A stretch of DNA of 64,000 nucleotides. Origin: a phage. The position numbers and the translations under genes were made by a program. Under the pieces are notes generated by a model. That model was not told the DNA's origin, searched no databases, and saw only the letters and a program-made list of their open reading frames with translations. The DNA is taken from sequence record PZ386967.1. One strand, 5' to 3'. Of this stretch, positions 36,246-53,210 are shown one piece after another (the stretch's first letter is position 1; each line of letters opens with the position of its first letter).

Positions 36246-36274
36246 TAAAAAGAAAGCCGGATAGGATATCCGGC
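36246..36274 (-). terminator. rho-independent terminator closing the tRNA cluster
   Basis: Hairpin GCCGGATA-GGA-TATCCGGC followed by a U-run on the minus strand. Confidence 0.5.
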
Positions 36275-36492
36275 TATACCACATCGATGGGTTGGGTTGA
36301 AAGACTACACGCTTACACTGGTACTACCCTATGGGAGAGCGCGTCAGGAGTCGAACCTGAAGTCGTCGACGTAGAGAAAGCTATTTGCATTTCACTATCC
36401 TCGCCGCGATTTTCTTAACTTCCTAAACACCCCGATTACGAGAGAGTCGACATGCACATCTTCTAACTCTTCAGGAAGTCACGCCCGTAATT

Positions 36493-36581
36493 TGGCGGAA
36501 GGTGAAGGATTCGAACCTTCGGGGGCTAAAAGCCCCACTCGATTAGCAGTCGAGTCCCTTAAACCTCTCGGGCAACCTTCC
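36493..36581 (-). tRNA. tRNA-Ser (anticodon GCU)
   Basis: Hand-folded cloverleaf: acceptor GGAAGGT/ACCTTCC, anticodon loop CTGCTAA, long variable arm, T-loop GGTTCGAATCC, encoded CCA. Confidence 0.8.
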
Positions 36582-36801
36582 AATTTGGACGGGCTTCACA
36601 CCCGATTGAGCATTTGATCTGCTGTAGCCCAACTCCCCGCGCTTCTCAGCGCCGATTGGTTAACTGGCGACCAGTGCCTTCTGGTTCGATCTCCTGGAAC
36701 TTTACAGGCTTTGCGCCCGACCATTTCTGGAAGTTGGGGCATCGTTTCCGATGTGGAGTCACCCCATTTTATACACAGCTGGCTGCAACGCTTACTGTGT
36801 T

Positions 36802-36886
36802 TGGTGTGAGTGGATGGATTCGAACCACCGCGCTGTTACGGGGAGATTTACAGTCTCCTGCATTCGACCGCTCTGCCACACTCACA
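36802..36886 (-). tRNA. tRNA-Tyr (anticodon GUA)
   Basis: Acceptor GTGAGTG/CACTCAC, anticodon stem GGAGA/TCTCC with loop CTGTAAA, long variable arm, T-loop TTCGAAT, encoded CCA. Confidence 0.75.
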
Positions 36887-37142
36887 TTTGGTCTGCCGCT
36901 GCGTGCTGGGCCACGCTCGAGGACATCGGCCATCCTTCCTCAGCTAATCCACGCAGCGGTAGATTTGTATCAGAGTGTCCGGTGTAGCAACCCGTGAGGT
37001 GCGCACTACTGTAGCCTCTACACTCTGAATTTGGTGGGCGTTACTATCGTCGTCTTCGGATTCCGTTCGGCTATTGGACAGAGGCTTGGAGCTTGTCGGT
37101 CGCGTACTTTATGCCTATTCACTTTCGTTCACACCCATTGTC

Positions 37143-37218
37143 TGGCGACGATGGCAGGACTTGAACCTGCGACATACGGTTTAACAGACCGCCGTTCTAC
37201 CGACTGAACTACATCGTC
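37143..37218 (-). tRNA. tRNA-Asn (anticodon GUU)
   Basis: Acceptor GACGATG/CATCGTC, anticodon loop CTGTTAA, T-arm CAGG-TTCAAGT-CCTG, encoded CCA. Confidence 0.8.
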
Positions 37219-37389
37219 TTGCAAATCACTATACCATATAAAGTTTATTGAACAAACATTTATTTTACAACAAACTGTATTGGCGGGGTCTGAGGCTTTT
37301 CACCTCACCTGCTGGGTTTGGCCGCCCAGCCGTTCTCTATGAGGATTCACTGTCCGGACAGCTATCCATTAAACTATCGCCCCTCAATA

Positions 37390-37466
37390 TGGTGATCCTG
37401 ATTGGGTTTGAACCAATGACCAATGAATTATGAGTTCACTGCTCTAACCGACTGAGCTACAGGACC
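37390..37466 (-). tRNA. tRNA-Met (anticodon CAU; initiator, elongator or Ile2 not resolved)
   Basis: Acceptor GGTCCTG/CAGGATC, D-arm TAGCTCAGTCGGTTAGAGCA, anticodon loop CTCATAA, T-loop GGTTCAAACCC, encoded CCA. Confidence 0.8.
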
Positions 37467-37469
37467 AAA

Positions 37470-39285
37470 TTATTGTGTGACCAACCAAGGACTGTCAACC
37501 CTTTATCCCGTTTGTGCATGATCAGTTCATACAGGCCTCTTTGTGCTGCCTCACGGCATGCGCTTCTGTTGGTCATTGGCTTACACTGTGGCCTCACAAC
37601 AGGCGTTTATTTTTCCAGGGCTTTCCACTTACAAGTCTTAACCAGACCGGGATACGGGCTTGTAAGATCGGGTTGGACACAACTTTGAGGACACTGACGA
37701 CGTATACGAGTCACCCATAACAGATATTCGGATGCCAGTGTCCTCAAAGTTGCAACCAATGTCGCAACTCGCAGCTTCCATACAGAAGCAACTTGTCCTC
37801 TAACGCTCGGACCAAACGAGGCTGGCTGGTTGATTCAGAGCCGCTGGTTGCTCCAGCAAGCATGGGTTGATAGCCCGGCAACATAGAATCACCCAAAGAT
37901 GAAGAACATTCATGACTCACATCACACCACGAATGGCCTGAAAGAGAATCGAACTCTTTAAATGCTCTTCATTTTGTGAACTTGAGAATACTACGCCTGT
38001 CTCGGGTTTCCCCTTAGTTCGGCCTCCCAGTCCTCGCCGCGCCGGGTAGCTAACCCTGATGGCTCGTCTGCTACTGAGTTCTTCTTGGTGCCCACCAGTG
38101 TCCGGAATGTGTAGACATCGCAATCTGCAAGGCATGGTCTATTTCACCCAATGCTCTCTCAAGTTCACAAATCGAAGTGCCCTGACTCAACAGTATGGCC
38201 CAATATGCTGTTATCGTCCACCGGATTGGCCGCCCAATTTGTAGATCAACCTTTGGGTTTAAGATAAATTGTCAAGGCACTTCGATTTGTGTGCCCTTCA
38301 CCTGCCAGGGATCAGGGCTGATGGCAAGACTTCGCTCACATCTTTCAAGATACTCGTGAGAATATCCTCAAAGATGTGGAGCCGTTTTAGGGAGTCGAAC
38401 CCAAATGCTCGGCCAGCGCTGACCTTACATCCCATCTGACTTAGGCAACCCACCTCTGCTTACTCAGGAGCTTATCCCCTTTGGACAGTCAGATATAACG
38501 GCATTGTCGACGGGAGCTTATTAATCACACCCTCCCGTCTATTGTTAGTGCGCCGAATTTGTTGATGAGGAATCGGAAGACCTCACTGACTTATAGGCTA
38601 TTACGCCGCCATCAGAACTTCGGAATCATTAGCAGTTATTTGCTTGGTCAGTTTCTAAAACCCGCAAAGTCACGCACAACGAAAACGAAAACCTGTTTGA
38701 GTCCTAAACGTACCTGTCTTGGTCTCACAACACTATGAGTGGCCAGGACTCAAACAGCTTGCCGTTCAGTGGGTTAACTATACTTTGTAACCCGTTATTG
38801 ATAAAACCTTTTATTTTTGTTGGCGAGGGCGTCACCATCGATTTACCGGAACTTACGCATCCGGCCTCGCCTGTTGGTGCTCCTTCGAATCCGGGAAGAT
38901 TAGTAGGAACTATGAATCAAGTTAATTCGACCAACAGGAACCTTGTTGCCCTTTGACGCAACATTATGAACCCTCTGTGAAGACTCATAATGTTGTCGGC
39001 GTGATGGAGATTAGCGCCCCCGACCTCCCCTTATACGTTGGTGTCGACTTGCCAACAGGGTGCTCTCTGATTCTGAGCTAATCACGCTACAACAGGGAGT
39101 TTCGTTCTCCGACGGTCAGTGCGTCCACCGACACCAGCGAGGTTGATATTACGCCTCTATTCGTCACGGTGCCCTGAGACTGGGCTTTCCTGGTTTCGGG
39201 TTCCAACCCTACTCCCACCGCGCTATTCGCCTCGTGTTTAATACTTTACTACAGCCCAACTAATTTGAAAAGTCCTCTCCTCTTT
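37470..39285 (-). ncRNA. candidate structured non-coding RNA locus (unclassified)
   Basis: About 1.8 kb with no credible ORF in any frame, visibly more GC-rich than flanking genes, with several long-range perfect inverted repeats of 12-17 bp; directly downstream of a small ORF and upstream of the tRNAs on the same strand. Strand and boundaries are guesses. Confidence 0.3.
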
Positions 39286-39432
39286 GAGCTACACTGCCCA
39301 CAGCAGTGCGGACGAACCTGAACTCAAAACCGGATGCGCCGAAGTGGGCGTCTGTTTACCGGACTGATCGGGTCGACCCAGGAGAGAGCAGGTAATCCCG
39401 ATCAGAAGGATGAGGAGTAACATCATGTAAAA
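39286..39432 (-). CDS. small hydrophobic peptide (48 aa, below the ORF-track cutoff)
   Basis: Hand-translated MFYMMLLLILLIGITCSLLGRPDQSGKQTPTSAHPVLSSGSSALLWAV with GGAGGG SD 6-8 nt upstream. Confidence 0.3.
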
Positions 39433-39492
39433 CATAGTGTTCCCTCCCTTCCATGCAAATAACTTTACTGCAATTATTTATTGAATAAAGCG

Positions 39493-40062
39493 TTATTTTA
39501 ACACTTCTAACTTCACAACACGACGCAGAAGGTAAACATATTCGCCAGCAGCTTCATGCGTCATATAATGGGTAGAAGGTGTGGAATGAGTGTTCTGGGT
39601 TTCTTTTAATCCAACGCGTTCAGCCCAACCATTAATAGAGTTTCCATAGAAACCGATAATCGCGCCAAAATAAATGCGCCCGCTTTCTGGCTCTAAAACG
39701 TAGTTGACAGTGAAGCAAATGTCCGAACGAATAGACTCCAGTTTCATACCAACACGACCTTCAGAGAATTCGTTACGAACATATAAATGACGGAAACGAT
39801 TACGCCGCGCTTGTGATGATTCTTCCATTTCTTGTCGAAGCGAAGAAGTTATGTCAATATTAAATGAAAATGTTGGATTTCGTAAATCAGAACGGGCCAA
39901 CTCTAAGGCAGATTCAATAACGCGACGGAAATTGATACTTTTACCTGTCAGGCGTTTCACTTCTTCGGTGATTGTTCCAAAAGGGATTTTCGTGGCGCGT
40001 TCCCCTTCGTATTTTGCTAACAAAGGAATAATGTGTTTCATAATTGCTGTGTTAATGTGCAT
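39493..40062 (-). CDS. hypothetical protein in an AT-rich island
   Basis: 189-aa ORF; ATG with GAGG SD; flanks are AT-rich. Confidence 0.45.
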   Translation of the reverse strand: MHINTAIMKHIIPLLAKYEGERATKIPFGTITEEVKRLTGKSINFRRVIESALELARSDLRNPTFSFNIDITSSLRQEMEESSQARRNRFRHLYVRNEFSEGRVGMKLESIRSDICFTVNYVLEPESGRIYFGAIIGFYGNSINGWAERVGLKETQNTHSTPSTHYMTHEAAGEYVYLLRRVVKLEVLK

Positions 40063-40427: not shown

Positions 40428-42206
40428 ATGGCCACGCAAACAGTCCCTTCACTCGATGTCAGGGCTTTCGAGTATCTTATCAAGAAGCGCATGAAAGCTG
40501 ATCCAACTTTCAAGGATTATGACTTTGAAGGTTCTGGTCTCAGTGCAATCGTGCGTATCTTGGCCTCGGATGCCAACTCTATCGGGTTCATGCAGAACAT
40601 GCTGAATGGCGAAAGCCATCTTCACTCTGCTCAACAGCGTTCTAATGTCGGTCTTGCGGCCGGGTTCTTGTCGTACACCCCTCACAACTACCAGGCGGCG
40701 TACCTGTACGCAAACGTCACAGTCACTCCATATGACGCCAGCACGGCTCCGGACACGATTATAATGGATCGCCGCGCGATGTTCATTGGGGCGAAGGATG
40801 GCAAATCCTACAACTTCACGGTTGACCAACCTGTGAGTGCCTCTCTTGTAGACGGCTCTTACAAGTTCGAGAACATCAAACTCGTACAGGGCAACTGGCT
40901 ATACAAGTCCTATGACGTGGAAGGCAGCGCGATCTCTACCTATGTGATCCCATCTTCTTCCGTGGACATCGACCATATGGTGGTGCAGGTGCAGGAATCT
41001 GAGACATCTGACGTGCGGTCTACCTTCTCACGATATGTCAGCCCGTTCGATTTGAGCCAGTATGCGCAACTCTACTTCGTTGAGCTGGGGTTGGACGGGA
41101 TGTATACGTTCGAATTCGGTGATGGGTATATCTGTAAGCGAGTAGAAGACGGGAACGTCGTGTACCTCCAGTATCTGGAGACAGCTGGTGCGGACGGCAA
41201 TGACATCACTGCCTTGTCCTCCGCGTCTTCCATCGGGGGATTCAACCTTGTAGATGTTGAGCTGGTGTCAGAACGTTCTTCCGGTGGTGCGGACCCGGAG
41301 AGCATTGAGGACATCAAGCGCCTTGCTCCGCTGGCTTATCAGGCTGAGGGTGCGGCGGTAGCTGAAGTCGATTATGCTGTGTTGACCGAGCGTCTGTTCT
41401 CCAACGTCTCCCGCGCCAAAGCATATGGCGGAGACACGCTCTCTCCGCCCGACTCCGGATACGTTTACATTGCTGTGGTGCCTTCTGTTGGTGAGACGCT
41501 CTCGGACGCCGAGAAGGCAGATATCGTGGCGAAGTTGGACAAGTACAATGTGGGCACGATCACACCCAAGATTGTCGACGCTGAACTGACTTATGTTGAT
41601 GTCACCACCCGCGTGTTCTGGGATCCGACTTCCACGACTTACACCGAAGAGCAGTTGAAGACAGTCGTGAAGAACGGTGTTGTCAACTGGGGCTTGGGGA
41701 ACCTAGAAGGATTCGACGAACTGTTCGATAAAGAGCAGTTGCAGTCGGCCATCACCGACATGGACAGATCGATAGTGTCAAACATCACTTCTGTGAAGTA
41801 TAAGCGCCATTTCAAGCCAGACTATGGGGTACTGGACAGCTTCACATTCGATTATGGGCGCTCGATTGCGTCTGGTTCTGTGCGTATCAGTGGGTTTAAG
41901 CCGCTTCCGGCCGAGGTCGAATTCACTTACTACATACGCGACGTCAGTGGTGTCCTGAATATGTACAAGGTGAGTACAACAGACACGACCAAGGAATATC
42001 TGGTACAAGCTGTTGGAATGGTTGATTATGTGACTGGCGTTGTTGAACTCCAGCGTATCATAGTATCCAACTACAACACTGAGGGTGTGACAATAATTGT
42101 GTCTCCAGACGGTCTTGACCAGAACATACAGGCCACACAGAATCAGGTGCTCCGCATCGGTGCTGTAACTGTGGAGCCGGAGGTGCGTTATGTCCAAAGA
42201 TCTTAA
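40428..42206 (+). CDS. 6: baseplate wedge protein (T4 gp6-like, Baseplate_J family)
   Basis: N-terminal DYDFEGSGLSAIVRILA matches recalled T4 gp6 (DYDFEGSRLNVLCDLLA); start moved to ATG 40428 with GGAG SD (ORF-track start is TTG). Confidence 0.7.
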   Translation: MATQTVPSLDVRAFEYLIKKRMKADPTFKDYDFEGSGLSAIVRILASDANSIGFMQNMLNGESHLHSAQQRSNVGLAAGFLSYTPHNYQAAYLYANVTVTPYDASTAPDTIIMDRRAMFIGAKDGKSYNFTVDQPVSASLVDGSYKFENIKLVQGNWLYKSYDVEGSAISTYVIPSSSVDIDHMVVQVQESETSDVRSTFSRYVSPFDLSQYAQLYFVELGLDGMYTFEFGDGYICKRVEDGNVVYLQYLETAGADGNDITALSSASSIGGFNLVDVELVSERSSGGADPESIEDIKRLAPLAYQAEGAAVAEVDYAVLTERLFSNVSRAKAYGGDTLSPPDSGYVYIAVVPSVGETLSDAEKADIVAKLDKYNVGTITPKIVDAELTYVDVTTRVFWDPTSTTYTEEQLKTVVKNGVVNWGLGNLEGFDELFDKEQLQSAITDMDRSIVSNITSVKYKRHFKPDYGVLDSFTFDYGRSIASGSVRISGFKPLPAEVEFTYYIRDVSGVLNMYKVSTTDTTKEYLVQAVGMVDYVTGVVELQRIIVSNYNTEGVTIIVSPDGLDQNIQATQNQVLRIGAVTVEPEVRYVQRS

Positions 42207-43044
42207 TAACGGACACAATGGGGTGAAATATGAAACCCCATTGTTTTACCAGAATGAATTCCCAGTATTCATCGAGTTTATGGATACGTTCTTCAACTGG
42301 TTGTATCGCCAGCAGGGATTCACCGAAGAGGAGATCTTGGCGTATCTGGCAGACACTGGTGGCTGGGTGAACCCAAATACGGATCAGTCTCCTATTGAGC
42401 AGTTGATTGACATCAAGAAGCGCAAGACGCCAGGTACTGAGGCCAAAGACTTCTTGGAAGACAAGTTCCTGACGCGCACGTTTGAGAACATGATGGCGCT
42501 AGACTTCGAAGATTTGCTGGACGTGGACGGTCGGCCATTAATCTCAATGGAAGACAAGAACGAACGCATCGACGATTGGTATGCTGATTTTGGATTCCAG
42601 AGAACGGTTGATAAGTCCTTCCTGGAGTTCGGGAAGTTTGTGCCAGTTGGTTCGGACAGTTTGGTGACTTCAGACGGAGACACTCTCTCTGTGTATGTCG
42701 AGGGAACTGAACGCCGGACACTGGACCATGTACGCTGGTTGAAGTTACTTAAACACATTTATCGCATTCGCGGGACGAAGAAAGCGATTGAATTGTTCTT
42801 CTGGATTTACTTTGGTTGCCCAGTGAGTGTGTATTATCCCAAGGAAGAAATTGGTGGCCTGGATGACAACTTTGAATGTGACGGCGCGACAGGAATGCGT
42901 GACGATTACTACTATGATGAATTCACGTATGTGATAAGAGTTCCTGGCAACGTATCTGATTTTGAAGGTGTGTTTGATCGCGTCTTCCGTCAGCATTTCC
43001 ATCCTGCTGGGTTTACTGTATTCCTAGAAAGTTCAAGGAGTTAA
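42190..43044 (+). CDS. putative baseplate protein
   Basis: 284-aa ORF translationally coupled to the gp6-like gene; GGAGGTG SD; function from synteny only. Confidence 0.4.
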   Translation: MSKDLNNGHNGVKYETPLFYQNEFPVFIEFMDTFFNWLYRQQGFTEEEILAYLADTGGWVNPNTDQSPIEQLIDIKKRKTPGTEAKDFLEDKFLTRTFENMMALDFEDLLDVDGRPLISMEDKNERIDDWYADFGFQRTVDKSFLEFGKFVPVGSDSLVTSDGDTLSVYVEGTERRTLDHVRWLKLLKHIYRIRGTKKAIELFFWIYFGCPVSVYYPKEEIGGLDDNFECDGATGMRDDYYYDEFTYVIRVPGNVSDFEGVFDRVFRQHFHPAGFTVFLESSRS

Positions 43045-43045
43045 A

Positions 43046-44236
43046 ATGGCCGATTTTCTGAGTCGATACACAGGTCAGCAGATTGATGCAATCCTTTCTT
43101 CTGTTGACGATAAAATAAGCAAGACTGATGTTGTCAACGATTTCGCTGTTGATGATCCGTTGTTCCCTCCTTCAGCTCATTTGACATACGAGCTGAAGCG
43201 TTCTGTGGATAAAATCTACGACACACTGGAAAACAAAGTGATCCGCACCGACGGTGGTGAACAAACGATCAACGGGAACAAGACCTTTGCTGCGTTATTG
43301 ACAGCCAACGGCGGCCTGACTGTTCCGGCTGGGAAGAAACTGTCTATCGCGGATGAGCCTATAGTAGCGACAGATGGTGTTAACCTGAGCATGTTGAGAA
43401 AGCATGGTGTCAGTGAAGACACTACCCCGCCTGGTTCTGGTTTGGCTGGGGAGTTGTTGACATCCGGATATTACAAATTCAATTTGGATTTCACCAGATT
43501 GTCTGCGTATACCGGATCAACGTTGCCGACTTCAATTCCAGTACAAACAGATTCTGGAGCGCGTTATTGGACAATGACTGCATTTTTTGATGCGTTGTTC
43601 GCAGACAACCGATTTAATGGATATGTGACAACGACAGCGTATGACGCAGATATGCTGAGTCTAGAGTCCCAGATTAATAACATCAACACATCGTTGAACG
43701 GGAAAGTCAACACATCGACTTACAACACTAAGATGGCGTCGTTGGATTTGAGTATCTCCAATATCAATACGTCTCTGGGTAATAAAGTCGAGGTCAGCAC
43801 GTACAACACGAAGATGACATCTCTGGATAACAGCATCAGTTCTCTTTCCAGTGATAAAGTTAATGTATCAACGTATAATGCCAAGATGACCTCTGTCGAC
43901 AATAGTTTAGGGAACGCCGTTTATCGTACCAAAACGAATTTGTCTTCTTACACGGTTTCGGCTTCTGGGACGACGGCTCTTCCAGATTTTGATTTGGTGA
44001 ACCTTTGTCAAATACTGGTGACCGCGCAATGGGGAACAGGTAACGTTGTTGATACATATCGAGTAACCATAACTCGCGACGGAACTATCAAATCGGAGTT
44101 GTTGGTTCAGAAAAGTACGAGCGGTACAGTGACGTTCACAGGGGCTGTGGTGGGTGGTAAATTGAGAATTTCCGTTGTTAATGCGAATACAACAACTGCT
44201 TGTTCGGTCGATTATTCTATTGTAGCTTCTTTCTAA
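43046..44236 (+). CDS. tail-fibre-like protein with tandem ~25-aa repeats
   Basis: Three to four tandem repeats of the form VxxSTYNTKMxSLDxSIS...; start 2 nt after the previous stop. Confidence 0.5.
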   Translation: MADFLSRYTGQQIDAILSSVDDKISKTDVVNDFAVDDPLFPPSAHLTYELKRSVDKIYDTLENKVIRTDGGEQTINGNKTFAALLTANGGLTVPAGKKLSIADEPIVATDGVNLSMLRKHGVSEDTTPPGSGLAGELLTSGYYKFNLDFTRLSAYTGSTLPTSIPVQTDSGARYWTMTAFFDALFADNRFNGYVTTTAYDADMLSLESQINNINTSLNGKVNTSTYNTKMASLDLSISNINTSLGNKVEVSTYNTKMTSLDNSISSLSSDKVNVSTYNAKMTSVDNSLGNAVYRTKTNLSSYTVSASGTTALPDFDLVNLCQILVTAQWGTGNVVDTYRVTITRDGTIKSELLVQKSTSGTVTFTGAVVGGKLRISVVNANTTTACSVDYSIVASF

Positions 44237-44243
44237 AGTGAAA

Positions 44244-44283
44244 ACTAAATACCCCTAGATGAAACGAACACATTTAGGGGTAT
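44244..44283 (+). promoter_or_regulatory. late-promoter-like motif ACTAAATAC plus 5' leader hairpin
   Basis: CTAAATA core, then inverted repeat ATACCCCTA / TAGGGGTAT whose 3' arm holds the only G-rich SD-like sequence before ATG 44289. Confidence 0.45.
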
Positions 44284-44288
44284 TTGAA

Positions 44289-47200
44289 ATGGCTAATAAA
44301 CCAACACAGCCTGTTTTCCCTCTCGGTCTGGTGGCTGAAGAGCAGTCTACTTTGGCTGGTGTCGTCAACACGGGTACGATTGAGCATGGACCAGATGCTG
44401 TCCTGACTTTACCCGAGGGTAATGCCAGCGCAGGACTCCCGTCTTCCGTTCGCTACAATGCCGACTCCGACGAATTTGAGGGCTTCTATGAAAATGGTGG
44501 ATGGTTGCCGCTGGGTGGCGGTGGTATCCGCTGGGAAGTCCTTCCGCATGCCTCTACGGTAATGCTCACTGAAGGGCGAGGCTATCTCATTAATAATACC
44601 ACAGGGGCATCTACAGTGGTTCTCCCTTCCCCTACGCGTATTGGGGATTCCGTTACTATTTGTGATGCTTATGGGAAATTTGCCACTTACCCATTGACCG
44701 TGTCTCCTTCTGGAAATAATTTGTATGGCTCCACTGAAGACATGGCTATAACAACTGATAACGTATCAGCAACGTTCACTTGGTCTGGACCTGAACAAGG
44801 TTGGATTATTACATCCGGCGTCGGTCTTGGCCAAGGCCGTGTCTACAGTCGTGAAATCTTTACAAAAATTTTGGCGTCTGAAACAAGTACTGTCACTCTC
44901 AATACTCCACCAACAATCGTGGACGTGTATGCTGACGGAAAACGCCTTGCGGAATCCAAATATTCACTAGATGGGAATGTAATCACTTTCAGTCCTTCTT
45001 TGCCAGCCAGCACAGAACTTCAGGTGATTGAATATACTCCTATTCAATTGGGTAATGGCGGTGGTTCTAGTTCTTCTACGATTACTTGGGTCTATAATGG
45101 GGGTTCAGCGATTGGCGGTGAAACCGAAATCACGTTGGACGTCGTTGTTGATGATGTTCCGGCCATTGATATAAACGGAAGTCGTCAGTATAAAAATCTG
45201 GGATTCACATTCGATCCATTAACCAGTAAAATCACTCTGGCGCAAGAACTGGAACCAGAAGATGAAGTTGTTGTAATCATCAATGGAACACCAAACATCT
45301 ATAATCAAATTGATCATACTTTGCGGGAAGTGGCTCGTGTAACCAATGTTAAAGATACAGAGGTCGTTTATTTTAGTGTTGGTGCTGTGCTAAGCGGGTA
45401 TAAAGTTATCTATGATAAAGTAACACAGAGATCATATTTTATTCCAGAGCTACCGACTGGAACCACGGCAGTCAGCCTTAGTTCTTCGGCTGTACTTGTG
45501 CATTCTGCTGGTAGTGTTGATCTGGGCGCATTAGCCGTATCTCGTGAGGAGTATGTGACCTTACCTGGTTCATTCGATACAGGTGTAACTGTTAATACCA
45601 AGAATGAGTTGGTTGTGAGTAACGATATTAAATATCGTTGGGATGGTTCTGTACCCAAAGTAGTCCCTCCAGAATCTACCCCATTGGGTACAGGAGGTGT
45701 TGGTCCAGGGGCATGGCTTGTAGTTGGTGTTGTTGGATTAGAGCAACGTTTAGCCTCCTGGAAAGGTTCTTCTCTTATTGATTCCGGTAGTCTGTCTCTT
45801 TACAAAAAGAGCGGTGTATTCGGTGATGGTGGGAATGTATCCGATAAATATCAGGTTGTTCTACATTCAGATGGGTTCTGGTACAAGTACAATGGGACAC
45901 TACCTGTTAGTTATGGTGCTGCCCCAGACTCTTCTTGGACTAACGTTGGTAAGCTAACAGGGTTTAATGAACACTCACCTGAGAATTTTGGTGCAATCCC
46001 CAATGACCCTAGTTTTGACTGTTTACCTGCTATAAAACTAGCTATAGCCACAGGTACATTAAATCTGAATGGGAATTCTACCTACCACGTAACGGATGAG
46101 GTTGTTATACCTTCTTACTTACGTGGGAATCTAAACGGGGCAACAATTAAAGCAATTGGCTCCGTATGGCCTACGTTAAAAGCTGTTGTACGCGTTAGTA
46201 AATTTCCTGTCGGTACAGCAACAGTGGATGTGGCTAATACAGAGAATCAAGTGCGAGGATTACGCTTAATCGGTAGCTTAAACGTAGACTGTGCAGATAT
46301 TGCATCATATGGTTTTTATGCACGTCTTCTGTGTGCAGAATCTGAGATGGGTAGCATCTATGCATATAATGCTAATAGATATGGCATTGTAATGTTTGCT
46401 TGCTGGTATTTTCAAATGGGCACTCTCCATGCAAACAACTGTGCAAGGGGTATGGCATTAGGTTATTCAACAGAAGGTGAGCAAGGGGATACCTATGTGA
46501 ATGCTACACACTTCCCTCACATTAGTGCATGGGGTACTGATAAGTCTACGGGACTAGGTTATGACCCAATCACGGATGATGCGAGTAAATATACAATAGG
46601 TGCTGGTATTATCTTAGGTCGTGGTTTGTCTACCAGTGTTGGTGTGATTTGCTCTGAGAATACGGCAGGTGCTGGGGTAGTAACAATGGACCCTGCTGCG
46701 TGGGACATTGGGGTCATGTACTGTGAGGGTAATAGTAAAGACTTTACTCAAGAGGGTGAACCCAAGGTGTCATTGCTGTCATCCAAGGCCAACAGTGAAA
46801 GTCATACGCTTACCATCTCCACACTCCACCTTTCCGCAGGTTGTGGCATTTTAACCAGAAGCAATCAAGAGCGTGTGCTAATCAGAAGTCTATATCGCTT
46901 TGATAACGCAAAAACCTTCCACTCTTACTGCACAGCAGACACAGTAGAGGTTGGTAGCAGCAACTACTATGTACTTAACGGGCATAATTACAATGCACCT
47001 GCTGCACTTATTAAGGAACCGCTCAATGTAGACTTTGTGCGTTCAGGGTTGACTTTAAGTGAGTGGACATCTACAGTTATCGGTCATTTTGCTGGTAGTA
47101 CAGCAGAACAACAGCTTTATGTTAAGCTCCCAGCAAGTCCCAGCGGCCTAGATTTACAGATAGATAGTGAGGATGGGACGGAATATATCACTGTAACTGG

Positions 47201-47342
47201 TACAGATTTTAAAGTCTCTCTAACTAAGAAAAGATTGCCTAGTAAACTGTATGAGATAAGGATTGGTGGGGTGTCTACAGTAGCTGTTACCGATTGTTCT
47301 ATTCTAGTCAGAAGTAAAAAAGGTGATTGGTATTACTGGTAG
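44289..47342 (+). CDS. tailspike protein with N-terminal adaptor region and internal conserved anchor module (TSP4-like)
   Basis: 1017 aa from ATG 44289; internal about 150-aa module (VVYFSVGAVLSGYKVIYDK...HSAGSVDLGALAVSREEYVTLPGSFDTGVTVNTKNELVV...) shared with three downstream genes; Asn/Gly-rich C-terminal half consistent with a beta-helix. Confidence 0.65.
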   Translation: MANKPTQPVFPLGLVAEEQSTLAGVVNTGTIEHGPDAVLTLPEGNASAGLPSSVRYNADSDEFEGFYENGGWLPLGGGGIRWEVLPHASTVMLTEGRGYLINNTTGASTVVLPSPTRIGDSVTICDAYGKFATYPLTVSPSGNNLYGSTEDMAITTDNVSATFTWSGPEQGWIITSGVGLGQGRVYSREIFTKILASETSTVTLNTPPTIVDVYADGKRLAESKYSLDGNVITFSPSLPASTELQVIEYTPIQLGNGGGSSSSTITWVYNGGSAIGGETEITLDVVVDDVPAIDINGSRQYKNLGFTFDPLTSKITLAQELEPEDEVVVIINGTPNIYNQIDHTLREVARVTNVKDTEVVYFSVGAVLSGYKVIYDKVTQRSYFIPELPTGTTAVSLSSSAVLVHSAGSVDLGALAVSREEYVTLPGSFDTGVTVNTKNELVVSNDIKYRWDGSVPKVVPPESTPLGTGGVGPGAWLVVGVVGLEQRLASWKGSSLIDSGSLSLYKKSGVFGDGGNVSDKYQVVLHSDGFWYKYNGTLPVSYGAAPDSSWTNVGKLTGFNEHSPENFGAIPNDPSFDCLPAIKLAIATGTLNLNGNSTYHVTDEVVIPSYLRGNLNGATIKAIGSVWPTLKAVVRVSKFPVGTATVDVANTENQVRGLRLIGSLNVDCADIASYGFYARLLCAESEMGSIYAYNANRYGIVMFACWYFQMGTLHANNCARGMALGYSTEGEQGDTYVNATHFPHISAWGTDKSTGLGYDPITDDASKYTIGAGIILGRGLSTSVGVICSENTAGAGVVTMDPAAWDIGVMYCEGNSKDFTQEGEPKVSLLSSKANSESHTLTISTLHLSAGCGILTRSNQERVLIRSLYRFDNAKTFHSYCTADTVEVGSSNYYVLNGHNYNAPAALIKEPLNVDFVRSGLTLSEWTSTVIGHFAGSTAEQQLYVKLPASPSGLDLQIDSEDGTEYITVTGTDFKVSLTKKRLPSKLYEIRIGGVSTVAVTDCSILVRSKKGDWYYW

Positions 47343-47350
47343 TATAATAA

Positions 47351-47380
47351 AAAGCCCCCAATTTTGGGGGCTTTTATTAT
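47351..47380 (+). terminator. rho-independent terminator
   Basis: Hairpin AAAGCCCCC-AATTTT-GGGGGCTTT followed by a T-run. Confidence 0.6.
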
Positions 47381-47414
47381 ATAGAGTTTACTGTTTTCAT
47401 TACCCTGATTGATA
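47374..47414 (+). repeat. about 40-nt intergenic repeat, copy 1
   Basis: TATATAGAGTTTACTGTTTTCATTACCCTGATTGATA; near-identical copy at 55206..55246. Confidence 0.6.
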
Positions 47415-47597
47415 ATGCTGTTGGCTCTCTCGGGTTGTCATCAAACGGGTATAAGAACTTTATAGGTGATATCAATGATGGGTCAGCGTATTTTTATTTC
47501 ACCAACATAGATGGATCAAGAATATCGGGGTCGTCTGTTTATGATGGGTGGGGTGATGTTGGTATACATTTTGAAATGTGTCTGGAATAGGAGTGTC

Positions 47598-47696
47598 AAA
47601 CCCCGCTTTGGCGGGGTTCTTATTATACCTTTGTTCATAAATTTGATTAGTTCAGACTAAATACTCCATATTGGTCATCCTTTATGGGGTATTATC
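47598..47696 (+). repeat. duplicated tailspike upstream cassette, copy 1 (hairpin, late-promoter-like motif, leader hairpin)
   Basis: About 85% identical by eye to 50575..50675; includes GACTAAATAC at 47655-47664 and leader hairpin ATACTCCATA / TATGGGGTAT at 47661-47692. Confidence 0.6.
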
Positions 47697-50126
47697 ATGA
47701 TTTCTCAATTCAATCAACCACGCGGCTCCACTTCCATAGAAGTTAACAAACAATCTATCGCTCGAAATTTCGGTGTCAAAGAAGACGAAGTCGTTTATTT
47801 CACTGCTGGTATTGATCTCAGTGGATTTAAAGTAATTTATAATGAGTCTACCCAACGGGCTTATTCTCTTCCTTCAGGTATTGTTTCAGGAACGACTGCG
47901 ATAAGTCTGGATAAAAGAGCTATCCTCACTCATTCAGCGGGTTCTGTTGATCTTGGGGAATTAGCAGTAAGCCGCGAAGAATACGTAACCTTACCTGGTT
48001 CATTTGATACTGGTGTAACTGTTAATACTAAGAATGAATTAGTTGTCTTTACCGATGGTAAGTATCGCTGGGATGGGGCACTGCCTAAAGAAGTGCCTGC
48101 TGGTTCAACCCCTACATCAACCGGTGGTGTTGGAACAGGTGCATGGGTTAGTGTTGGTGATGCGAGTTTGAGGTCAATAGCTCAATACAGAGCCAATACC
48201 ATTGAAGATTTAAAATCATTGCCATTTGCGGTTGGAGATATTGTTAATGTCGCTGGGTATTATGATGTTTTTGATGGGGCACAGCATTACCGAGTGATTA
48301 GTGGTACAGATGATGGAACAGGGGTTCAGCTCAATAATGGTTTGTGGGCAAATATTATCATTAATGGCGATGCTTGTGTAGATTGGTTTGGCGCTAAAGG
48401 TGATGGTGTTGCAGATGACTGGTGGGCAATCAATAAAGCTATTAACGCCTCGCTCTCTACCGATTATCAGGGTGGTTGGTGGGAGACGTCAAGTAGAAAC
48501 CCTAAATTTAAAGTTAGACTTAGTAGACGCTCTTACAGAATCACTAAACAGATTTTACTACCCCCTTACATAGAGTTTTATGGTATGGGTTCGCGCTGGT
48601 ATTTTTCGGGTGATAATAATTCTCGCTTAATCCCTGATTTTGATAATCCGTTGCAATTCGCTGTGAAATCTGCTAGCTATATTGTTGAAACCGGTGAACT
48701 AGCACCTGAGGGGTGGTATTCTGGGGTGGTTTGGGTTGACCCAAAAAAACTAACGACTTGTCATGGTATTAAAACTTATGGATATAGCATCGAACCAACA
48801 AAACAAATTTTAGGCGGTATAAGACTGATAGCGAGTCCAATTTCTCATGTATACGATATATTCATAACAAATGTTGATTTTGGAGTTTTACTGAATTGTT
48901 CATGGGTGAGTAAGGTTGACGTTAAAACTCATCATAATAAATGCGGGGTTATGTCTAGTCATGATGGTAATAACACTCACGTGGATGGTTATTTTACAGG
49001 GACAGAAATCAAACCGCTTGATGGTAATCCTTACCTCAACCCAATAGAGTCTTTAGACTCTACAACAGGGCTCCAAGACCAATCTATATCTGACCCAGAC
49101 AGTAAAATAGGTGTGATTTTTTATTGGTCACAGGGGTCAACAAGTACGAATATGACGTGTGAGGGTAACACTATTTCGTTGGCTGTGGCTAAGGGTGGTG
49201 CTGATGTAAGGTGTTTATACTCAGAACGTAATTCAGATTGTACATTTACTGGGTACAGTTCACTAGTTACAATTGGTGAAATAACTGGCATTGGTGACGG
49301 TGGAACTTTTGAGCTTGGTGTAAATAATACTATTTCGTTAGACAAAGACACTCAGTATGGTGTCGCTAAACGATTTAAGTACGTGAGCGAGTGGGGTAAT
49401 AAGCTGTTTATGCCCTCTAGCTGGAAAGAATACACCAAAGGTTGTTTAGTTGAAGGGTTTGATTATAGCGAAATTTTTGTAGATGCGATAAATGGAGATG
49501 ACACCAATGTTGGCTCCAGTCTTCACCCTGTGAAAACTTTGGAGAGAGCTCTAACGCTTGTGAATTCAGTGTATACTACATCTGACTTGCTAAGCTCAGT
49601 GCCGAGGGATAGAGTAATAAAGTTAGTAGGCTCAGCAACATACTACCCAGACGGACAGCATAGGTTCGTGGGCGGCTCGTTAAAAATTACAAAAGCTGAT
49701 AACTCACGACCGACTGTTAATTTATCAAAACCAATCCGATTTAACGACACATCCCTAGTATTTGAGGAAGTAAATTTAGTGCGACCAACAGATGACCACG
49801 GGAATAATGAGAATGGCGCAATTTTCCTTGAGGATGGGTGTAATGAAGTCAGATTGAAAAACTGCGATCTAAGTCTACAAAAATTCAGCTTCTTATATCC
49901 TACTTGGGGCTTTGCTGGAATATGTACCTTGGTGTTAAACGGGGTTAGTGTTACTGGTGATTCAACAACAAGAATGATACAAACAGCTGATGGATATCAT
50001 GATTTGCACTTGTTTAATGTAATTAGCTACGAGACAACTTACACTGGAGGAATAGAGTCAAGACCAGATAAAGGCTATGATATACCAGCAGATAGACGTG
50101 GTCATATATTGGGTGTATCAATATAA
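47697..50126 (+). CDS. tailspike protein with N-terminal anchor module (TSP1-like)
   Basis: 809 aa; the conserved module sits at the N-terminus; a 50-nt stretch (48114-48163) is identical to 51597-51646; Asn/Gly-rich C-terminal region. Confidence 0.65.
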   Translation: MISQFNQPRGSTSIEVNKQSIARNFGVKEDEVVYFTAGIDLSGFKVIYNESTQRAYSLPSGIVSGTTAISLDKRAILTHSAGSVDLGELAVSREEYVTLPGSFDTGVTVNTKNELVVFTDGKYRWDGALPKEVPAGSTPTSTGGVGTGAWVSVGDASLRSIAQYRANTIEDLKSLPFAVGDIVNVAGYYDVFDGAQHYRVISGTDDGTGVQLNNGLWANIIINGDACVDWFGAKGDGVADDWWAINKAINASLSTDYQGGWWETSSRNPKFKVRLSRRSYRITKQILLPPYIEFYGMGSRWYFSGDNNSRLIPDFDNPLQFAVKSASYIVETGELAPEGWYSGVVWVDPKKLTTCHGIKTYGYSIEPTKQILGGIRLIASPISHVYDIFITNVDFGVLLNCSWVSKVDVKTHHNKCGVMSSHDGNNTHVDGYFTGTEIKPLDGNPYLNPIESLDSTTGLQDQSISDPDSKIGVIFYWSQGSTSTNMTCEGNTISLAVAKGGADVRCLYSERNSDCTFTGYSSLVTIGEITGIGDGGTFELGVNNTISLDKDTQYGVAKRFKYVSEWGNKLFMPSSWKEYTKGCLVEGFDYSEIFVDAINGDDTNVGSSLHPVKTLERALTLVNSVYTTSDLLSSVPRDRVIKLVGSATYYPDGQHRFVGGSLKITKADNSRPTVNLSKPIRFNDTSLVFEEVNLVRPTDDHGNNENGAIFLEDGCNEVRLKNCDLSLQKFSFLYPTWGFAGICTLVLNGVSVTGDSTTRMIQTADGYHDLHLFNVISYETTYTGGIESRPDKGYDIPADRRGHILGVSI

Positions 50127-50574
50127 ATAATTGATATTATGCTTCATGGTGATTGTGGGTGATTCACCCACGATTACTTTTAGGTACTACAGTTGATAAT
50201 TCAGATTGATACATTGGATTGGCAGGTGCGTGTAATACTGCACTTGAATTTTGATACATAAATCCGGCACCCTCCCTCACCCTCAACGCGCCCAATTGCC
50301 CCCATAGGAGGCTCATTACCTCCTTGTGGGCTTTGTTGTTTTTGTGGCTGCTGTTGCTGACTACATTCTATGTATGGATGTATCTCATCATACTAAGCAT
50401 TATCTAAGAGCCATCCTATGATACGACCCCATTGGGATTCCTAACTTCACAACTACGGTAATATTATGAATTAATCAGGTGAACTGCTCCTAGTCAGACT
50501 GGAGGAACGATTGAAGACTCTGTTTGATAATCAGGCAAGGGATAGATAGGATCGTGGTTTTGGAGAGTAAAATC

Positions 50575-53180: not shown

Positions 53181-53184
53181 AACT

Positions 53185-53210
53185 AACCCCGCTTCGGCGG
53201 GGTTTCTTAG
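53185..53210 (+). terminator. terminator-like hairpin
   Basis: Hairpin AACCCCGC-TTCG-GCGGGGTT followed by TTCTTAG. Confidence 0.45.

What the first reader, a model, noticed from the sequence alone, without database searches (positions are those of the whole stretch)
37680..37752. Perfect 17-bp inverted repeat with a 39-nt loop
CAACTTTGAGGACACTG at 37680-37696 and its exact reverse complement at 37736-37752 form a very stable hairpin, longer than any terminator stem in the window and not next to a U-run. It could be an RNA processing site (for example an RNase III substrate), a protein-binding operator, or a structural domain of the putative ncRNA.
Basis: seen in the sequence. Interest (0 to 1): 0.4.

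Follow-up and report, generated by a model that had tools for sequence, protein, structure and literature searches.

The report
Conserved RNA stem in phage ncRNA
The 17-bp inverted repeat is a real RNA helix, kept paired by evolution, on the tRNA-coding strand of an Ackermannviridae phage; it sits at the 5' edge of a conserved, undescribed structured RNA domain near tRNA-Met, and its most likely job, a processing or boundary stem, is untested.

Summary
The perfect 17-bp inverted repeat at 37680-37696/37736-37752 is the longest in the window, and no shuffle exceeded 13 bp.

The window is a Kuttervirus (Ackermannviridae) phage. The hairpin lies in a ~1.8-kb ORF-poor stretch (37467-39288) on the minus strand, upstream of four tRNA genes. 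This stretch is better conserved across genera than the neighbouring protein gene.

In 24 relatives the stem pairs in 99.1% of cells, and 7 of 18 pairs show compensatory changes. G.U wobbles outnumber A.C by 17 to 2 on the minus strand, so it is a selected RNA helix on the tRNA strand.

The 24-nt "extended arms" are probably not native. Their outer parts form a small upstream hairpin and helix P1, which closes a 206-nt, 99.4%-paired multi-helix domain (37681-37476).

A covariance model of the hairpin finds similar 17-bp hairpins directly after two tRNA-like elements. Insertions, deletions and module swaps in relatives end at the hairpin base. No Rfam family matches.

Best reading: a boundary and processing stem, probably an RNase III site, in a polycistronic ncRNA-tRNA precursor. 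The helix is shown; the cleavage is inferred.

Side finding: a tmRNA-like tag-coding module (ANDSEVLMAA*) lies 850 nt upstream.

The parts
37680..37752 (-). The hairpin of the finding. In RNA sense the 5' arm is 37752-37736 and the 3' arm is 37696-37680. Pairing continues through G37735.U37697 and C37734-G37698. The 39-nt apical part contains a small hairpin with the conserved apex GUUAUGGGUGAC.
   Evidence: Sequence and repeat search. Fold z = -5.55. 99.1% of cells paired and 7 of 18 pairs with changes on both sides, against 28-44% in slid controls. 17 G.U cells on the minus strand against 2 that would be G.U on the plus strand.
37751..37766 (-). Small upstream hairpin Pa (37766-37761 pairs with 37756-37751). 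It uses the 5' 'extension' of the 24-nt arm and shares C37752/A37751 with the base of the main stem.
   Evidence: RNAalifold. 96.5% paired, 2 pairs with changes on both sides.
37476..37681 (-). Conserved 206-nt 3' domain closed by long-range helix P1 (37681-37671 with 37486-37476). It contains P2 (37670-37625), P3/P3a, a GNRA-capped hairpin, P5, a CCUG/CGGG long-range helix, and invariant joiners such as UGGAAAGCCCUGGAAAAAUAAAC.
   Evidence: 65 pairs including the hairpin, 99.4% of cells paired, 15 pairs with changes on both sides. P1 has a CG to UA swap in 6 sequences. 85-92% DNA identity in genera whose flanking ORF is about 69% identical.
37390..37466 (-). tRNA-Met(CAU), 9 nt downstream of the 3' domain. 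It is the first of four tRNAs: Met, Asn 37143-37218, Tyr 36802-36885, Ser 36493-36581.
   Evidence: ARAGORN and Rfam. The order '3' domain then tRNA-Met' holds in 18 fetched loci from five Ackermannviridae lineages (Kuttervirus, Agtrevirus, Limestonevirus, Taipeivirus, Miltonvirus). In CBA120-like phages an HNH gene lies between them.
36255..36275 (-). Intrinsic-terminator-like site after tRNA-Ser. It is the only one on the minus strand between 40258 and 36255.
   Evidence: Terminator scan.
38337..38378 (-). Related 17-19-bp hairpin I5 (CACAUCUUUGAGGAUAUUC / GAGUAUCUUGAAAGAUGUG). It starts inside the CCA of tRNA-like element 2. In relatives its loop holds inserts of 0-110 nt, some of them tRNA-like.
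   Evidence: The covariance model built from the finding's hairpin scores it 20.1 bits, E = 0.0076. Alignment of relatives.
38959..38995 (-). 17-bp hairpin I6 (CAACAUUAUGAGUCUUC / GAGGGUUCAUAAUGUUG), 3 nt after the acceptor 3' strand of tRNA-like element 1.
   Evidence: Covariance model hit at 16.8 bits, E = 0.056, which is marginal. Sequence.
38683..38767 (-). 20-22-bp hairpin I4, also with a 39-nt interior, immediately 5' of the tmRNA-like module.
   Evidence: Repeat search. 20 bp with 4 compensatory pairs. Sequence similarity to the finding's hairpin is not significant.
38166..38291 (-). 20-21-bp hairpin I3 with an 84-nt interior. Its 3' arm can alternatively pair with 37964-37987.
   Evidence: Repeat search. 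20 bp with 9 compensatory pairs.
37467..39288 (-). The whole ORF-poor, conserved non-coding array between a 48-codon ORF (39289-39435) and tRNA-Met. The hairpin is one element of it.
   Evidence: ORF list. Conservation profile. 212 phage records cover 80% or more of it. No Rfam family apart from tRNAs.

Best explanation
Shown: the inverted repeat is a base-paired helix of 17-20 bp in an RNA read from the minus strand, the strand of the four tRNA genes. Its pairing is maintained by selection across Ackermannviridae. It stands directly against helix P1, which closes a conserved 206-nt multi-helix RNA domain that ends 9 nt before tRNA-Met.

Inferred: the hairpin is a boundary and processing stem in a long non-coding-plus-tRNA precursor. 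Host RNase III would cut the long regular duplex, separating the upstream modules from the 3' domain and giving that domain its 5' end. RNase P cleavage at tRNA-Met, where that tRNA is adjacent, would give its 3' end. The stem also lets neighbouring modules fold independently. Similar 17-bp stems that follow two tRNA-like elements upstream would do the same job, much as RNase III stems bracket rRNAs and separate T7 early messages.
For: RNA helix and strand:
- 99.1% of 432 cells are paired; 7 of 18 pairs have compensatory changes across at least five stem variants; slid controls give 28-44%.
- There are 17 G.U cells on the minus strand against 2 A.C cells.
- No ORF across the hairpin is conserved.

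Context:
- The flanking helices Pa and P1 covary, and the 3' domain is 99.4% paired with 15 compensatory pairs.
- There is no terminator-like site on the minus strand from 40258 to 36275, so one transcription unit running into the tRNAs is plausible.

Boundary role:
- The STnc100-like insertion in Taipeivirus ends exactly at the hairpin's 5' base.
- A ~390-nt deletion in IMG/VR contig 3300045988_107072 ends at 37753.
- The hairpin interior of this phage is 96-97.5% identical to Taipeivirus and KWBSE43-6 copies but 81% identical to its otherwise closest relative, which is 96% identical overall.
- phiMAM1 has a tRNA-like 3' end (T arm plus GCCA) in the hairpin's place, directly before P1.
- Limestonevirus keeps only the stem, capped by GAAA. 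The stem, not the loop, is therefore the conserved part.

Repeated use:
- The model built from this hairpin finds 38378-38336 (E = 0.0076) directly after a CCA end and 38997-38956 (E = 0.056) directly after another acceptor strand. It finds further copies in Det7, SKML-39, May and phiMAM1.

RNase III plausibility:
- The stem has 20 contiguous pairs, and its arms are 39 nt apart. Cleavage sites within the arms would be about 39-70 nt apart, near the 58-nt median reported for E. coli double-cleavage stems.
- A central AGGA/UCCU step fits the WSSW preference (PMC6212723).
Against: - No transcript or cleavage data exist for any Ackermannviridae phage in the searched literature.
- The WSSW step is not conserved at that position in the commonest Kuttervirus variant (GAUGGCUCUGG) or in hairpin I6.
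- Helices of this length also occur as purely architectural arms.
- In CBA120-like phages a 414-nt HNH endonuclease gene lies between the 3' domain and tRNA-Met, so RNase P cannot make the domain's 3' end there.
- Similarity to I5 and I6 rests on modest scores, and similarity to I4 is not significant.
- The aligned sequences are related, so the number of independent compensatory events is small, roughly five to seven.
Confidence: 0.5

Rival explanations
1. A purely architectural helix. The stem is a permanent arm of a larger folded RNA, for example stacked on P1 of the 3' domain or part of a multi-domain particle, and is not cleaved. Its conserved proximal 8 bp and apical GUYDUGGRUGAC motif would be contact or protein-binding surfaces.
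For: The proximal CAACUUUG/CAAAGUUG pairs are nearly invariant while the distal pairs vary freely. The apex motif is conserved in all but Limestonevirus. The helix abuts P1 with no spacer nucleotides. Large ornate RNAs next to tRNAs in phages (GOLLD, ROOL) are built from many such helices (PMC12286853, PMC5737381).
Against: phiMAM1 keeps the whole 3' domain without this hairpin, and Limestonevirus deletes the whole apical part. No conserved intramolecular partner was found for the apical loop. An uninterrupted 20-bp duplex in an enterobacterial cell is expected to be accessible to RNase III (established knowledge; PMC6212723).
Confidence: 0.3
2. A DNA-level recombination or cassette-boundary repeat. 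Short repeated hairpin sequences act as crossover points for modular shuffling of the tRNA/ncRNA region, like PeSL motifs of T4-type phages. The RNA structure would be incidental.
For: Indel and mosaic breakpoints coincide with the hairpin base. Similar stem bases occur at 38337-38378 with highly variable inserts. Dispersed CAUUGGKUG repeats flank the deletion. The precedent is PeSLs (PMC2839356, PMC4122927).
Against: Recombination repeats need sequence identity, not pairing. Here the distal stem sequence diverges while pairing is kept, and only the wobble type compatible with minus-strand RNA is tolerated. No promoter or U-tract of the PeSL type is present, and no ORF cassettes are involved. 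This role could coexist with an RNA role.
Confidence: 0.1
3. A conformational switch. The last two base pairs of the stem and its flanks can alternatively form (a) the 24-nt extended hairpin or (b) Pa plus P1, so the hairpin would gate folding of the 3' domain.
For: The outer extension pairs in 99.3% of cells, and its nucleotides are also used by Pa and P1, which covary. C37752/A37751 and U37681/G37680 are shared by two helices each.
Against: The outer extension shows no covariation at all, because its pairs barely vary. That says nothing in its favour. Mutually exclusive short helices are common by chance at helix junctions.
Confidence: 0.06
4. A DNA operator or cruciform, an intrinsic terminator, or a coding sequence. 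Det7 genes 199 and 200 are annotated as hypothetical proteins over this stretch.
For: It is a perfect palindrome-like repeat. Small ORFs are annotated over the homologous stretch in some records.
Against: Half-sites about 55 bp apart with variable spacing, together with the G.U asymmetry, argue against a DNA site. There is no U-run and the loop is 39 nt. The longest open frames differ in strand, frame and length among relatives, and 1-2-nt indels are frequent.
Confidence: 0.04

Closest known systems
RNase III processing stems (the leader-trailer duplexes bracketing 16S/23S rRNA, and the hairpins between T7 early genes)
   Same: A long, regular intramolecular duplex of about two helical turns with no U-tract. 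It is placed between functional units of a polycistronic transcript, and similar copies are repeated along the transcript. The arm separation is in the range seen for E. coli double-cleavage stems (PMC6212723; the T7 and rRNA examples are from established knowledge).
   Different: No cleavage has been mapped. The preferred WSSW step is present in this phage's copy but is not conserved. The units it separates are non-coding modules and tRNA-like elements, not rRNAs or mRNAs.
Stable RNAs of the phage T4 tRNA cluster (species 1 and 2, rnaC/rnaD) and their multimeric precursors
   Same: Structured RNAs of unknown function encoded beside and co-transcribed with phage tRNAs, and matured by host RNases (own knowledge, not tested here). 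Ackermannviridae share T4-like structural genes, for example the gp6 baseplate wedge next to this locus.
   Different: No sequence relationship was tested or seen. The Ackermannviridae array is much longer, about 1.8 kb, and has several domains.
GOLLD and ROOL large ornate RNAs
   Same: Large, multi-helix, covarying non-coding RNAs often found next to tRNA genes in phages and prophages (PMC5737381, PMC12286853).
   Different: Their Rfam models give no match here, even at E up to 10. The hosts differ, and here the region looks modular, with parts that occur separately in other phage families, rather than a single fold.
Two-piece (permuted) tmRNA precursors
   Same: The neighbouring module carries a tmRNA-like tag frame. 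In the Rfam tmRNA_permuted alignment the model's long helix upstream of the tag frame is aligned to hairpin I4, a stem of the same general type as the finding's.
   Different: The scores (20-33 bits) are below the gathering score of 47. ARAGORN calls no tmRNA. The finding's hairpin lies 850 nt away, and its sequence similarity to I4 is not significant.
PeSL promoter/stem-loop cassettes of T4-type phages
   Same: Repeated stem-loop motifs located at the boundaries of modules that are gained, lost or swapped between related phages (PMC2839356, PMC4122927).
   Different: PeSLs combine an early promoter with a terminator-like stem-loop and flank ORFs. Here there is no promoter or U-tract, no ORFs are involved, and selection acts on RNA pairing.

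Membership tests
Intrinsic (Rho-independent) terminator | Short G+C-rich stem with a loop of 3-8 nt, followed by a U-run | tested here: not met
   The loop is 39 nt and no U-run follows on either strand. The scan does not call it. The only minus-strand terminator-like site of the unit is at 36275-36255.
RNase III processing stem | Regular intramolecular duplex of about two helical turns (about 20-24 positions) | tested here: met
   20 contiguous pairs including two G.U in the window. 17-20 pairs in all variants, including the Limestonevirus stem with its GAAA loop.
RNase III processing stem | Preferred base-pair pattern around the scissile bonds (WSSW between the two cuts; PMC6212723) | tested here: inconclusive
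   AGGA/UCCU lies at 37744-37741/37688-37691 in the window and in hairpin I5. It is absent at that position in the commonest Kuttervirus variant and in I6. The paper's full position-specific score table was not available.
RNase III processing stem | RNase III-dependent ends with 2-nt 3' overhangs mapped in vivo or in vitro | not testable with these tools
   No transcript data are available, and literature searches found none for Ackermannviridae.
Any curated RNA family (Rfam 15, 4227 models, including GOLLD, ROOL, tmRNA, RNase P, group I/II introns) | Match at or above the family's gathering score | tested here: not met
   Only four tRNAs pass in the window. Over the hairpin there are only chance-level miRNA-model hits, for example mir-70 at 22 bits against a gathering score of 90.
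Conserved structured non-coding RNA (generic criterion) | Base pairs maintained by compensatory substitutions beyond the controls, with no conserved reading frame | tested here: met
   Hairpin: 7 of 18 pairs and 36 cells changed on both sides, 0 of 500 shuffles reach the score, slid controls give 1 pair or fewer. Hairpin plus 3' domain: 15 of 65 pairs. Open frames are not conserved.
Dimeric-protein DNA operator | Two conserved half-sites at short, fixed spacing | tested here: not met
   The interior between the conserved stem bases ranges from 20 to 69 nt. The distal arm sequence is not conserved, and the wobble asymmetry is strand-specific.
PeSL-type mobile regulatory cassette | Early promoter plus terminator-like stem-loop flanking an ORF cassette | tested here: not met
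   No promoter-like site is adjacent to the hairpin, apart from a chance-like one at 37498-37469 whose predicted start would fall inside tRNA-Met. There is no U-tract and no conserved ORFs.
tmRNA (considered for the neighbouring module 38547-38686, not for the hairpin itself) | Tag reading frame without a start codon, beginning with an Ala codon after an A-rich stretch, ending in hydrophobic-Ala-Ala-type residues, with stop codon(s) in a hairpin loop | tested here: met
   38633-38601 reads GCU AAU GAU UCC GAA GUU CUG AUG GCG GCG UAA, then UAG, giving ANDSEVLMAA*. There are 14 sequence variants in four phage families, all of the form ANDxxxL(A/M)(A/V)A*. One tag has three synonymous codings.
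tmRNA (neighbouring module) | Recognition by the curated models or detectors (Rfam gathering score; ARAGORN) | tested here: not met
   tmRNA_permuted scores 20 bits in the window, 33.1 in IME11 and 28.3 in Sa179lw, against a gathering score of 47. alpha_tmRNA scores 21 and beta_tmRNA 18. ARAGORN calls none.
tmRNA (neighbouring module) | tRNA-like domain with G3.U70, T arm and CCA, joined to the tag frame in the standard or the known permuted order | tested here: inconclusive
   Two tRNA-like elements flank the module. Element 1 is 39087-38998, with acceptor GCGUGAU/AUCACGC and no CCA. Element 2 is 38502-38377, with a T arm and AAACGGC-U-CCA. Neither shows G3.U70, and the order fits neither known arrangement.

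The most novel reading that the evidence does not exclude
The hairpin is one of a set of processing stems in an undescribed phage 'RNA operon'. This would be a ~1.8-kb polycistronic precursor that strings together mobile structured RNA modules: a tmRNA-like tag-coding piece, tRNA-like elements, an STnc100-type sRNA in some genera, and a 206-nt domain of unknown function. Host RNase III, RNase P and RNase Z would release them together with the phage tRNAs. If so, Ackermannviridae and several unrelated phage families that share single modules inside their tRNA arrays would carry a hidden repertoire of translation-directed RNAs, possibly including a split trans-translation system with its own degradation tag.
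Probability: 0.25. Interest if true: 0.8.

Novelty: new member of a known kind. Interest (0 to 1): 0.5.

Why it matters
Ackermannviridae (Vi1, CBA120, Det7 and LIMEstone types) are among the most sequenced and most applied phages for Salmonella, E. coli O157, Klebsiella and Dickeya. About 1.8 kb of their genomes is either left unannotated or filled with spurious 'hypothetical proteins'.

The hairpin gives a firm anchor. It shows that the stretch is read as structured RNA from the tRNA strand, and it marks the edge of a conserved 206-nt domain that has no family in Rfam. If the stems are processing sites, they define the mature ends of several unknown phage RNAs and make those RNAs directly testable by Northern blot, end mapping and rnc hosts.

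The neighbouring tmRNA-like tag frame is shared with Schitoviridae, Ounavirinae and a siphovirus. It suggests that some of these RNAs act on host translation or proteolysis.

Tried and rejected
- Rfam at gathering and at E up to 10: no family for the hairpin or the 3' domain.
- Literature searches on Ackermannviridae/Kuttervirus with ncRNA, structured RNA, transcriptome, or GOLLD/ROOL found nothing relevant. A search on phage tmRNA tags returned nothing, and one preprint could not be opened.
- Neighbouring proteins (189 aa, 214 aa, 404 aa, 48 aa, 152 aa): only PHROGs of unknown function and a weak PALP hit, so no RNA-processing enzyme is nearby.
- Host origin: no match of the hairpin plus domain in 5,426 E. 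coli genomes. The invariant 22-mer occurs once in 185,579 bacterial species genomes, on a 526-bp contig that is probably phage contamination.
- IMG/VR scan for the stem base with a gap of 5-35 nt: I set the gap too short for the real element. The 72 hits are at about chance level and were discarded.
- Metagenome scan with the correct gap: 49 hits, of which only one (L163) is an Ackermannviridae contig. The rest are chance matches.
- Kissing partner for the apical loop AUGGGU: ACCCAU is present in some relatives and absent in most, so this was rejected.
- Sequence relationship between the finding's hairpin and I4: the alignment score of 40 against 33 +/- 6 for shuffles is not significant.
- Genome-end or packaging-site idea, raised because several records start or end in this region: the annotated 'repeat_region' is just the I3 arm and the record starts are arbitrary, so this was rejected.
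- The tRNA-like 3' end that replaces the hairpin in phiMAM1 does not fold as a full tRNA (z = 0.28). It is treated only as a T-arm/acceptor minihelix.
- The sigma-70-like site at 37498-37469 (11 of 12 matches) is not conserved, and its predicted start would fall inside tRNA-Met.
Full report
**1. The observation**

The repeat search extends them to 24-nt arms at 88% complementarity.

This is the longest perfect inverted repeat (loop of 100 nt or less) in the 64-kb window. In 100 dinucleotide-preserving shuffles the longest arm never exceeded 13 bp. Three of the four longest perfect repeats of the window lie within the same 1.8 kb.

A 111-nt stretch folds to -45.2 kcal/mol on the minus strand (z = -5.55) and -42.4 kcal/mol on the plus strand (z = -4.89). 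No U/T run follows the stem, and the terminator scan does not call it.

**2. Where it lies**

The window is an Ackermannviridae phage. The best match is Enterobacter phage fGh-Ecl02 (Kuttervirus), 96% identical over 3.4 kb.

Four tRNA genes (Met, Asn, Tyr, Ser) lie on the minus strand at 36493-37466. Between tRNA-Met and a 189-codon ORF (39493-40062, minus) there are only a 48-codon ORF (39289-39435, PHROG 8415) and about 1.8 kb without any long frame.

This arrangement recurs in Kuttervirus, Agtrevirus, Limestonevirus, Taipeivirus and Miltonvirus. On the minus strand the only terminator-like sites are at 40272-40258 and, after tRNA-Ser, at 36275-36255. One transcription unit running through the non-coding stretch into the tRNAs is therefore plausible.

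The stretch is better conserved than the coding sequence beside it. The hairpin plus downstream block is 85-92% identical in SKML-39, IME250 and LIMEstone1, whose 189-codon ORF is only 69-71% identical at the DNA level.

**3. The helix is selected, and it is RNA from the minus strand**

I aligned 24 distinct copies in RNA sense (alignment A1). The stem (columns 33-50 with 104-121) forms standard pairs in 99.1% of 432 cells. Seven of 18 pairs changed on both sides (36 cells). No shuffle of 500 reaches the observed covariation score. Sliding the 3' partner by 1-3 columns drops pairing to 28-44%, with at most one such pair. RNAalifold finds the same helix independently.

The stem variants are:
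- GAGGACACUG/CAGUGUCCUC in the window, Taipeivirus and KWBSE43-6
- GAUGGCUCUGG/CCAGAGCCAUC
- GAUGGCUCUAG/CUAGAGCCAUC
- GAUAGCUCUGG/CCAGAGCUAUC
- CUCUGAUGGCUCUC/GAGAGCCAUCAGAG in Agtrevirus-like contigs
- the Limestonevirus form, a 17-bp stem capped by GAAA

One-sided changes give 17 G.U/U.G cells on the minus strand. Only two cells are A.C, which would be G.U on the plus strand. This points to the strand of the tRNAs.

Open frames across the hairpin differ in strand, frame and length among relatives, and 1-2-nt indels are frequent. The 'hypothetical proteins' annotated here in some records (Det7 gp199/200, SeKF_19) are therefore not supported.

A caveat applies. The sequences are related, so the number of independent compensatory events is perhaps five to seven, not 36.

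**4. What the flanks do**

The outer parts of the 24-nt arms pair in 99.3% of cells but never covary. The same nucleotides belong to two helices that do covary:
- a small hairpin Pa just upstream (37766-37761 with 37756-37751)
- a long-range helix P1 (37681-37671 with 37486-37476; a CG to UA swap in six sequences)

P1 closes a 206-nt domain with at least six further helices, a GNRA-capped hairpin (GUGA, GCGA, GUAA, GCAA) and invariant joiners such as UGGAAAGCCCUGGAAAAAUAAAC. With the hairpin included, 65 pairs are 99.4% paired, and 15 pairs changed on both sides.

The domain ends 9 nt before tRNA-Met in this phage. In CBA120-like phages a 414-nt HNH endonuclease gene is inserted between the two.

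The invariant 22-mer occurs only in 152-162-kb contigs, the Ackermannviridae genome size, in IMG/VR. It occurs on one 526-bp contig among bacterial genomes and not at all in E. coli genomes. No Rfam model matches the hairpin or the domain, even at E up to 10.

**5. The hairpin marks a module boundary and has relatives**

- In Taipeivirus phages P01 and IME250 an insertion passes the Rfam gathering score for the prophage sRNA STnc100 (53.6 and 48.7 bits). It ends exactly at the 5' base of the hairpin region. Background on STnc100 is in bioRxiv 10.64898/2026.05.13.724894.
- An IMG/VR contig has lost about 390 nt (38146-37753). The junction lies directly at the first stem nucleotide, between CAUUGGGUG and CAUUGGUUG repeats.
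- The interior of this phage's hairpin is 96-97.5% identical to Klebsiella Taipeivirus and E. coli phage KWBSE43-6. It is only 81% identical to fGh-Ecl02, the closest relative overall. The hairpin has therefore been exchanged as a unit.
- Miltonvirus phiMAM1 keeps the whole 3' domain but has a T arm plus acceptor strand ending GCCA where the hairpin would be. That element does not fold as a complete tRNA.
- A covariance model built from 13 hairpin variants finds two more 17-bp stems in the window. One is at 38378-38336 (20.1 bits, E = 0.0076) and begins inside the CCA of a tRNA-like element. The other is at 38997-38956 (16.8 bits, E = 0.056) and begins 3 nt after the acceptor strand of another tRNA-like element. 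Similar extra hits appear in Det7, SKML-39, May and phiMAM1.
- In relatives the 38378-38336 stem encloses inserts of 0 to about 110 nt. One insert is a tRNA-like unit whose acceptor stem continues the hairpin stem.
- Two other long covarying stems lie in the same region: 38767-38683 (4 compensatory pairs) and 38291-38166 (9 compensatory pairs). Their sequence relationship to the finding's hairpin is not significant.

**6. Mechanism**

Shown: a selected 17-20-bp RNA helix on the tRNA strand, at the 5' edge of a conserved structured domain and at module boundaries.

Inferred: it is a boundary and processing stem. An uninterrupted duplex of two helical turns in an enterobacterial transcript is the classical RNase III substrate. 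The in vivo rules for E. coli are double cleavage in intramolecular stems, 24 recognised positions, a median of 58 nt between the two cuts, and a WSSW preference between them (PMC6212723). The window's stem fits these in length and arm separation, and it has a central AGGA/UCCU step. That step is not conserved in the commonest variant, so the sequence evidence is neutral.

Cleavage would free the 3' domain at its 5' side. RNase P at tRNA-Met would free its 3' side where the tRNA is adjacent. The replacement of the hairpin by a tRNA-like end in phiMAM1 fits the idea that 'something cleavable' is needed at this position.

The rivals are a purely architectural arm (0.3), a DNA-level recombination repeat of the PeSL type (0.1; PMC2839356, PMC4122927), a conformational switch between the extended hairpin and Pa + P1 (0.06), and operator, terminator or coding readings (0.04 together).

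**7. Comparison with known systems and novelty**

The closest functional analogues are:
- RNase III stems around rRNAs and between T7 early genes
- the T4 tRNA-cluster stable RNAs
- large ornate RNAs such as GOLLD and ROOL that sit beside phage tRNAs (PMC5737381, PMC12286853)

Membership in any curated RNA family was tested and not met. As a hairpin, this is a new member of a known kind: a structural or processing stem of a phage stable-RNA precursor. The RNA it belongs to appears undescribed. No paper in the searchable library mentions it.

**8. Side finding that changes the picture of the region**

The module at 38547-38686 starts right after the 38767-38683 stem. It matches, at 72-84% DNA identity, unannotated gaps in Schitoviridae IME11, the siphovirus Sa179lw, and the tRNA arrays of Ounavirinae SB18 and Erwinia phages.

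It carries a 10-codon frame without a start codon, after an A-rich stretch. In the window (38633-38601) it reads GCU AAU GAU UCC GAA GUU CUG AUG GCG GCG UAA, followed by UAG, which gives ANDSEVLMAA*. The stop codons lie in a hairpin loop.

Fourteen nucleotide variants in four phage families all read ANDxxxL(A/M)(A/V)A*. They include three synonymous codings of ANDNTFLAVA. This is the signature of a tmRNA tag frame; the E. coli tag is ANDENYALAA (own knowledge).

Rfam's permuted, alpha and beta tmRNA models hit it below threshold: 20 bits in the window, 33.1 and 28.3 bits in IME11 and Sa179lw, against a gathering score of 47. ARAGORN calls nothing.

Two tRNA-like elements flank the module: 39087-38998 and 38502-38377, the latter ending in CCA. 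Neither has G3.U70, and their order fits neither the standard nor the known permuted tmRNA arrangement. I therefore report a tmRNA-like coding module, not a tmRNA.

This strengthens the view that the 1.8-kb stretch is an array of separate RNA modules. The finding's hairpin is one of the stems that punctuate the array.

Noticed in passing
window 38547-38686 (minus); tag frame 38633-38601: A tmRNA-like mRNA-like module. It is a 10-codon frame with no start codon (ANDSEVLMAA*, followed by a second stop) after an A-rich stretch, with the stops in a hairpin loop. It is conserved as ANDxxxL(A/M)(A/V)A* with synonymous variation in Ackermannviridae, Schitoviridae IME11, siphovirus Sa179lw and Ounavirinae SB18. 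Rfam tmRNA_permuted, alpha and beta models hit below threshold (20-33 bits against 47), and ARAGORN is silent.
   Followed up: partly
window 39087-38998 and 38502-38377 (minus): Two tRNA-like elements that ARAGORN and the Rfam tRNA model do not call. Element 1 has acceptor GCGUGAU/AUCACGC, a canonical D arm (GCUCAG...GAGC) and no CCA; the phiMAM1 homologue is called tRNA-Cys(ACA). Element 2 has GCCGUUA...GGGUUCGACUCCC...AAACGGC-U-CCA. Each is followed at once by a 17-bp hairpin.
   Followed up: partly
window 37625-37670 (minus); L048 1995-2045: The P2 hairpin of the 3' domain (loop CCCGUAUCCCGGUCUGGUUAAGA) occurs on its own between tRNA-Thr and tRNA-Asn of the unrelated Klebsiella phage KP13-26 (Stephanstirmvirinae). 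It has the identical loop and a compensatory stem change, CUUAUAAG/CUUAUAAG.
   Followed up: partly
L015 2616-2830 and L017 1790-2003 (insertion relative to window ~37776): Taipeivirus phages P01 and IME250 carry an element that passes the Rfam gathering score for the prophage sRNA STnc100 (53.6 and 48.7 bits against 47), inserted directly 5' of the hairpin. It is absent from the window.
   Followed up: partly
window 38157-38186 versus 37964-37987 and 38271-38291: The 3' arm of the strongly covarying 38291-38166 stem overlaps a segment that can instead pair with 37964-37987 (24 nt, 88%). The two pairings are mutually exclusive. Some GenBank records annotate this arm as a 'repeat_region'.
   Followed up: no
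window 38664-38677 with 38416-38428: RNAalifold predicts a 12-bp long-range helix with about 5 compensatory pairs. It links the start of the tmRNA-like module to the region just 5' of the T arm of tRNA-like element 2, which could hold two processed pieces together.
   Followed up: no
L018 1058-1471 (CBA120): In CBA120-like phages an HNH homing endonuclease gene is inserted between the 3' domain and tRNA-Met, so the domain is not always adjacent to the tRNA.
   Followed up: no
window 39289-39435 (minus): A 48-codon ORF encoding a hydrophobic peptide (MFYMMLLLILLIGITCSLLG...) with a good ribosome-binding site. It matches PHROG 8415 and keeps its length in several genera, so it is probably a real small membrane protein gene at the head of the non-coding array.
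   Followed up: partly
window 37918-37967 (minus): A T-arm-like sequence (AAGAGUUCGAUUCUCUU) in a segment that is missing or unalignable in most relatives. It is possibly a decayed tRNA gene.
   Followed up: no
window 42001-56000: G+C content drops to 0.41-0.46, against about 0.50 elsewhere, with positive GC skew. This may be a horizontally exchanged block.
   Followed up: no
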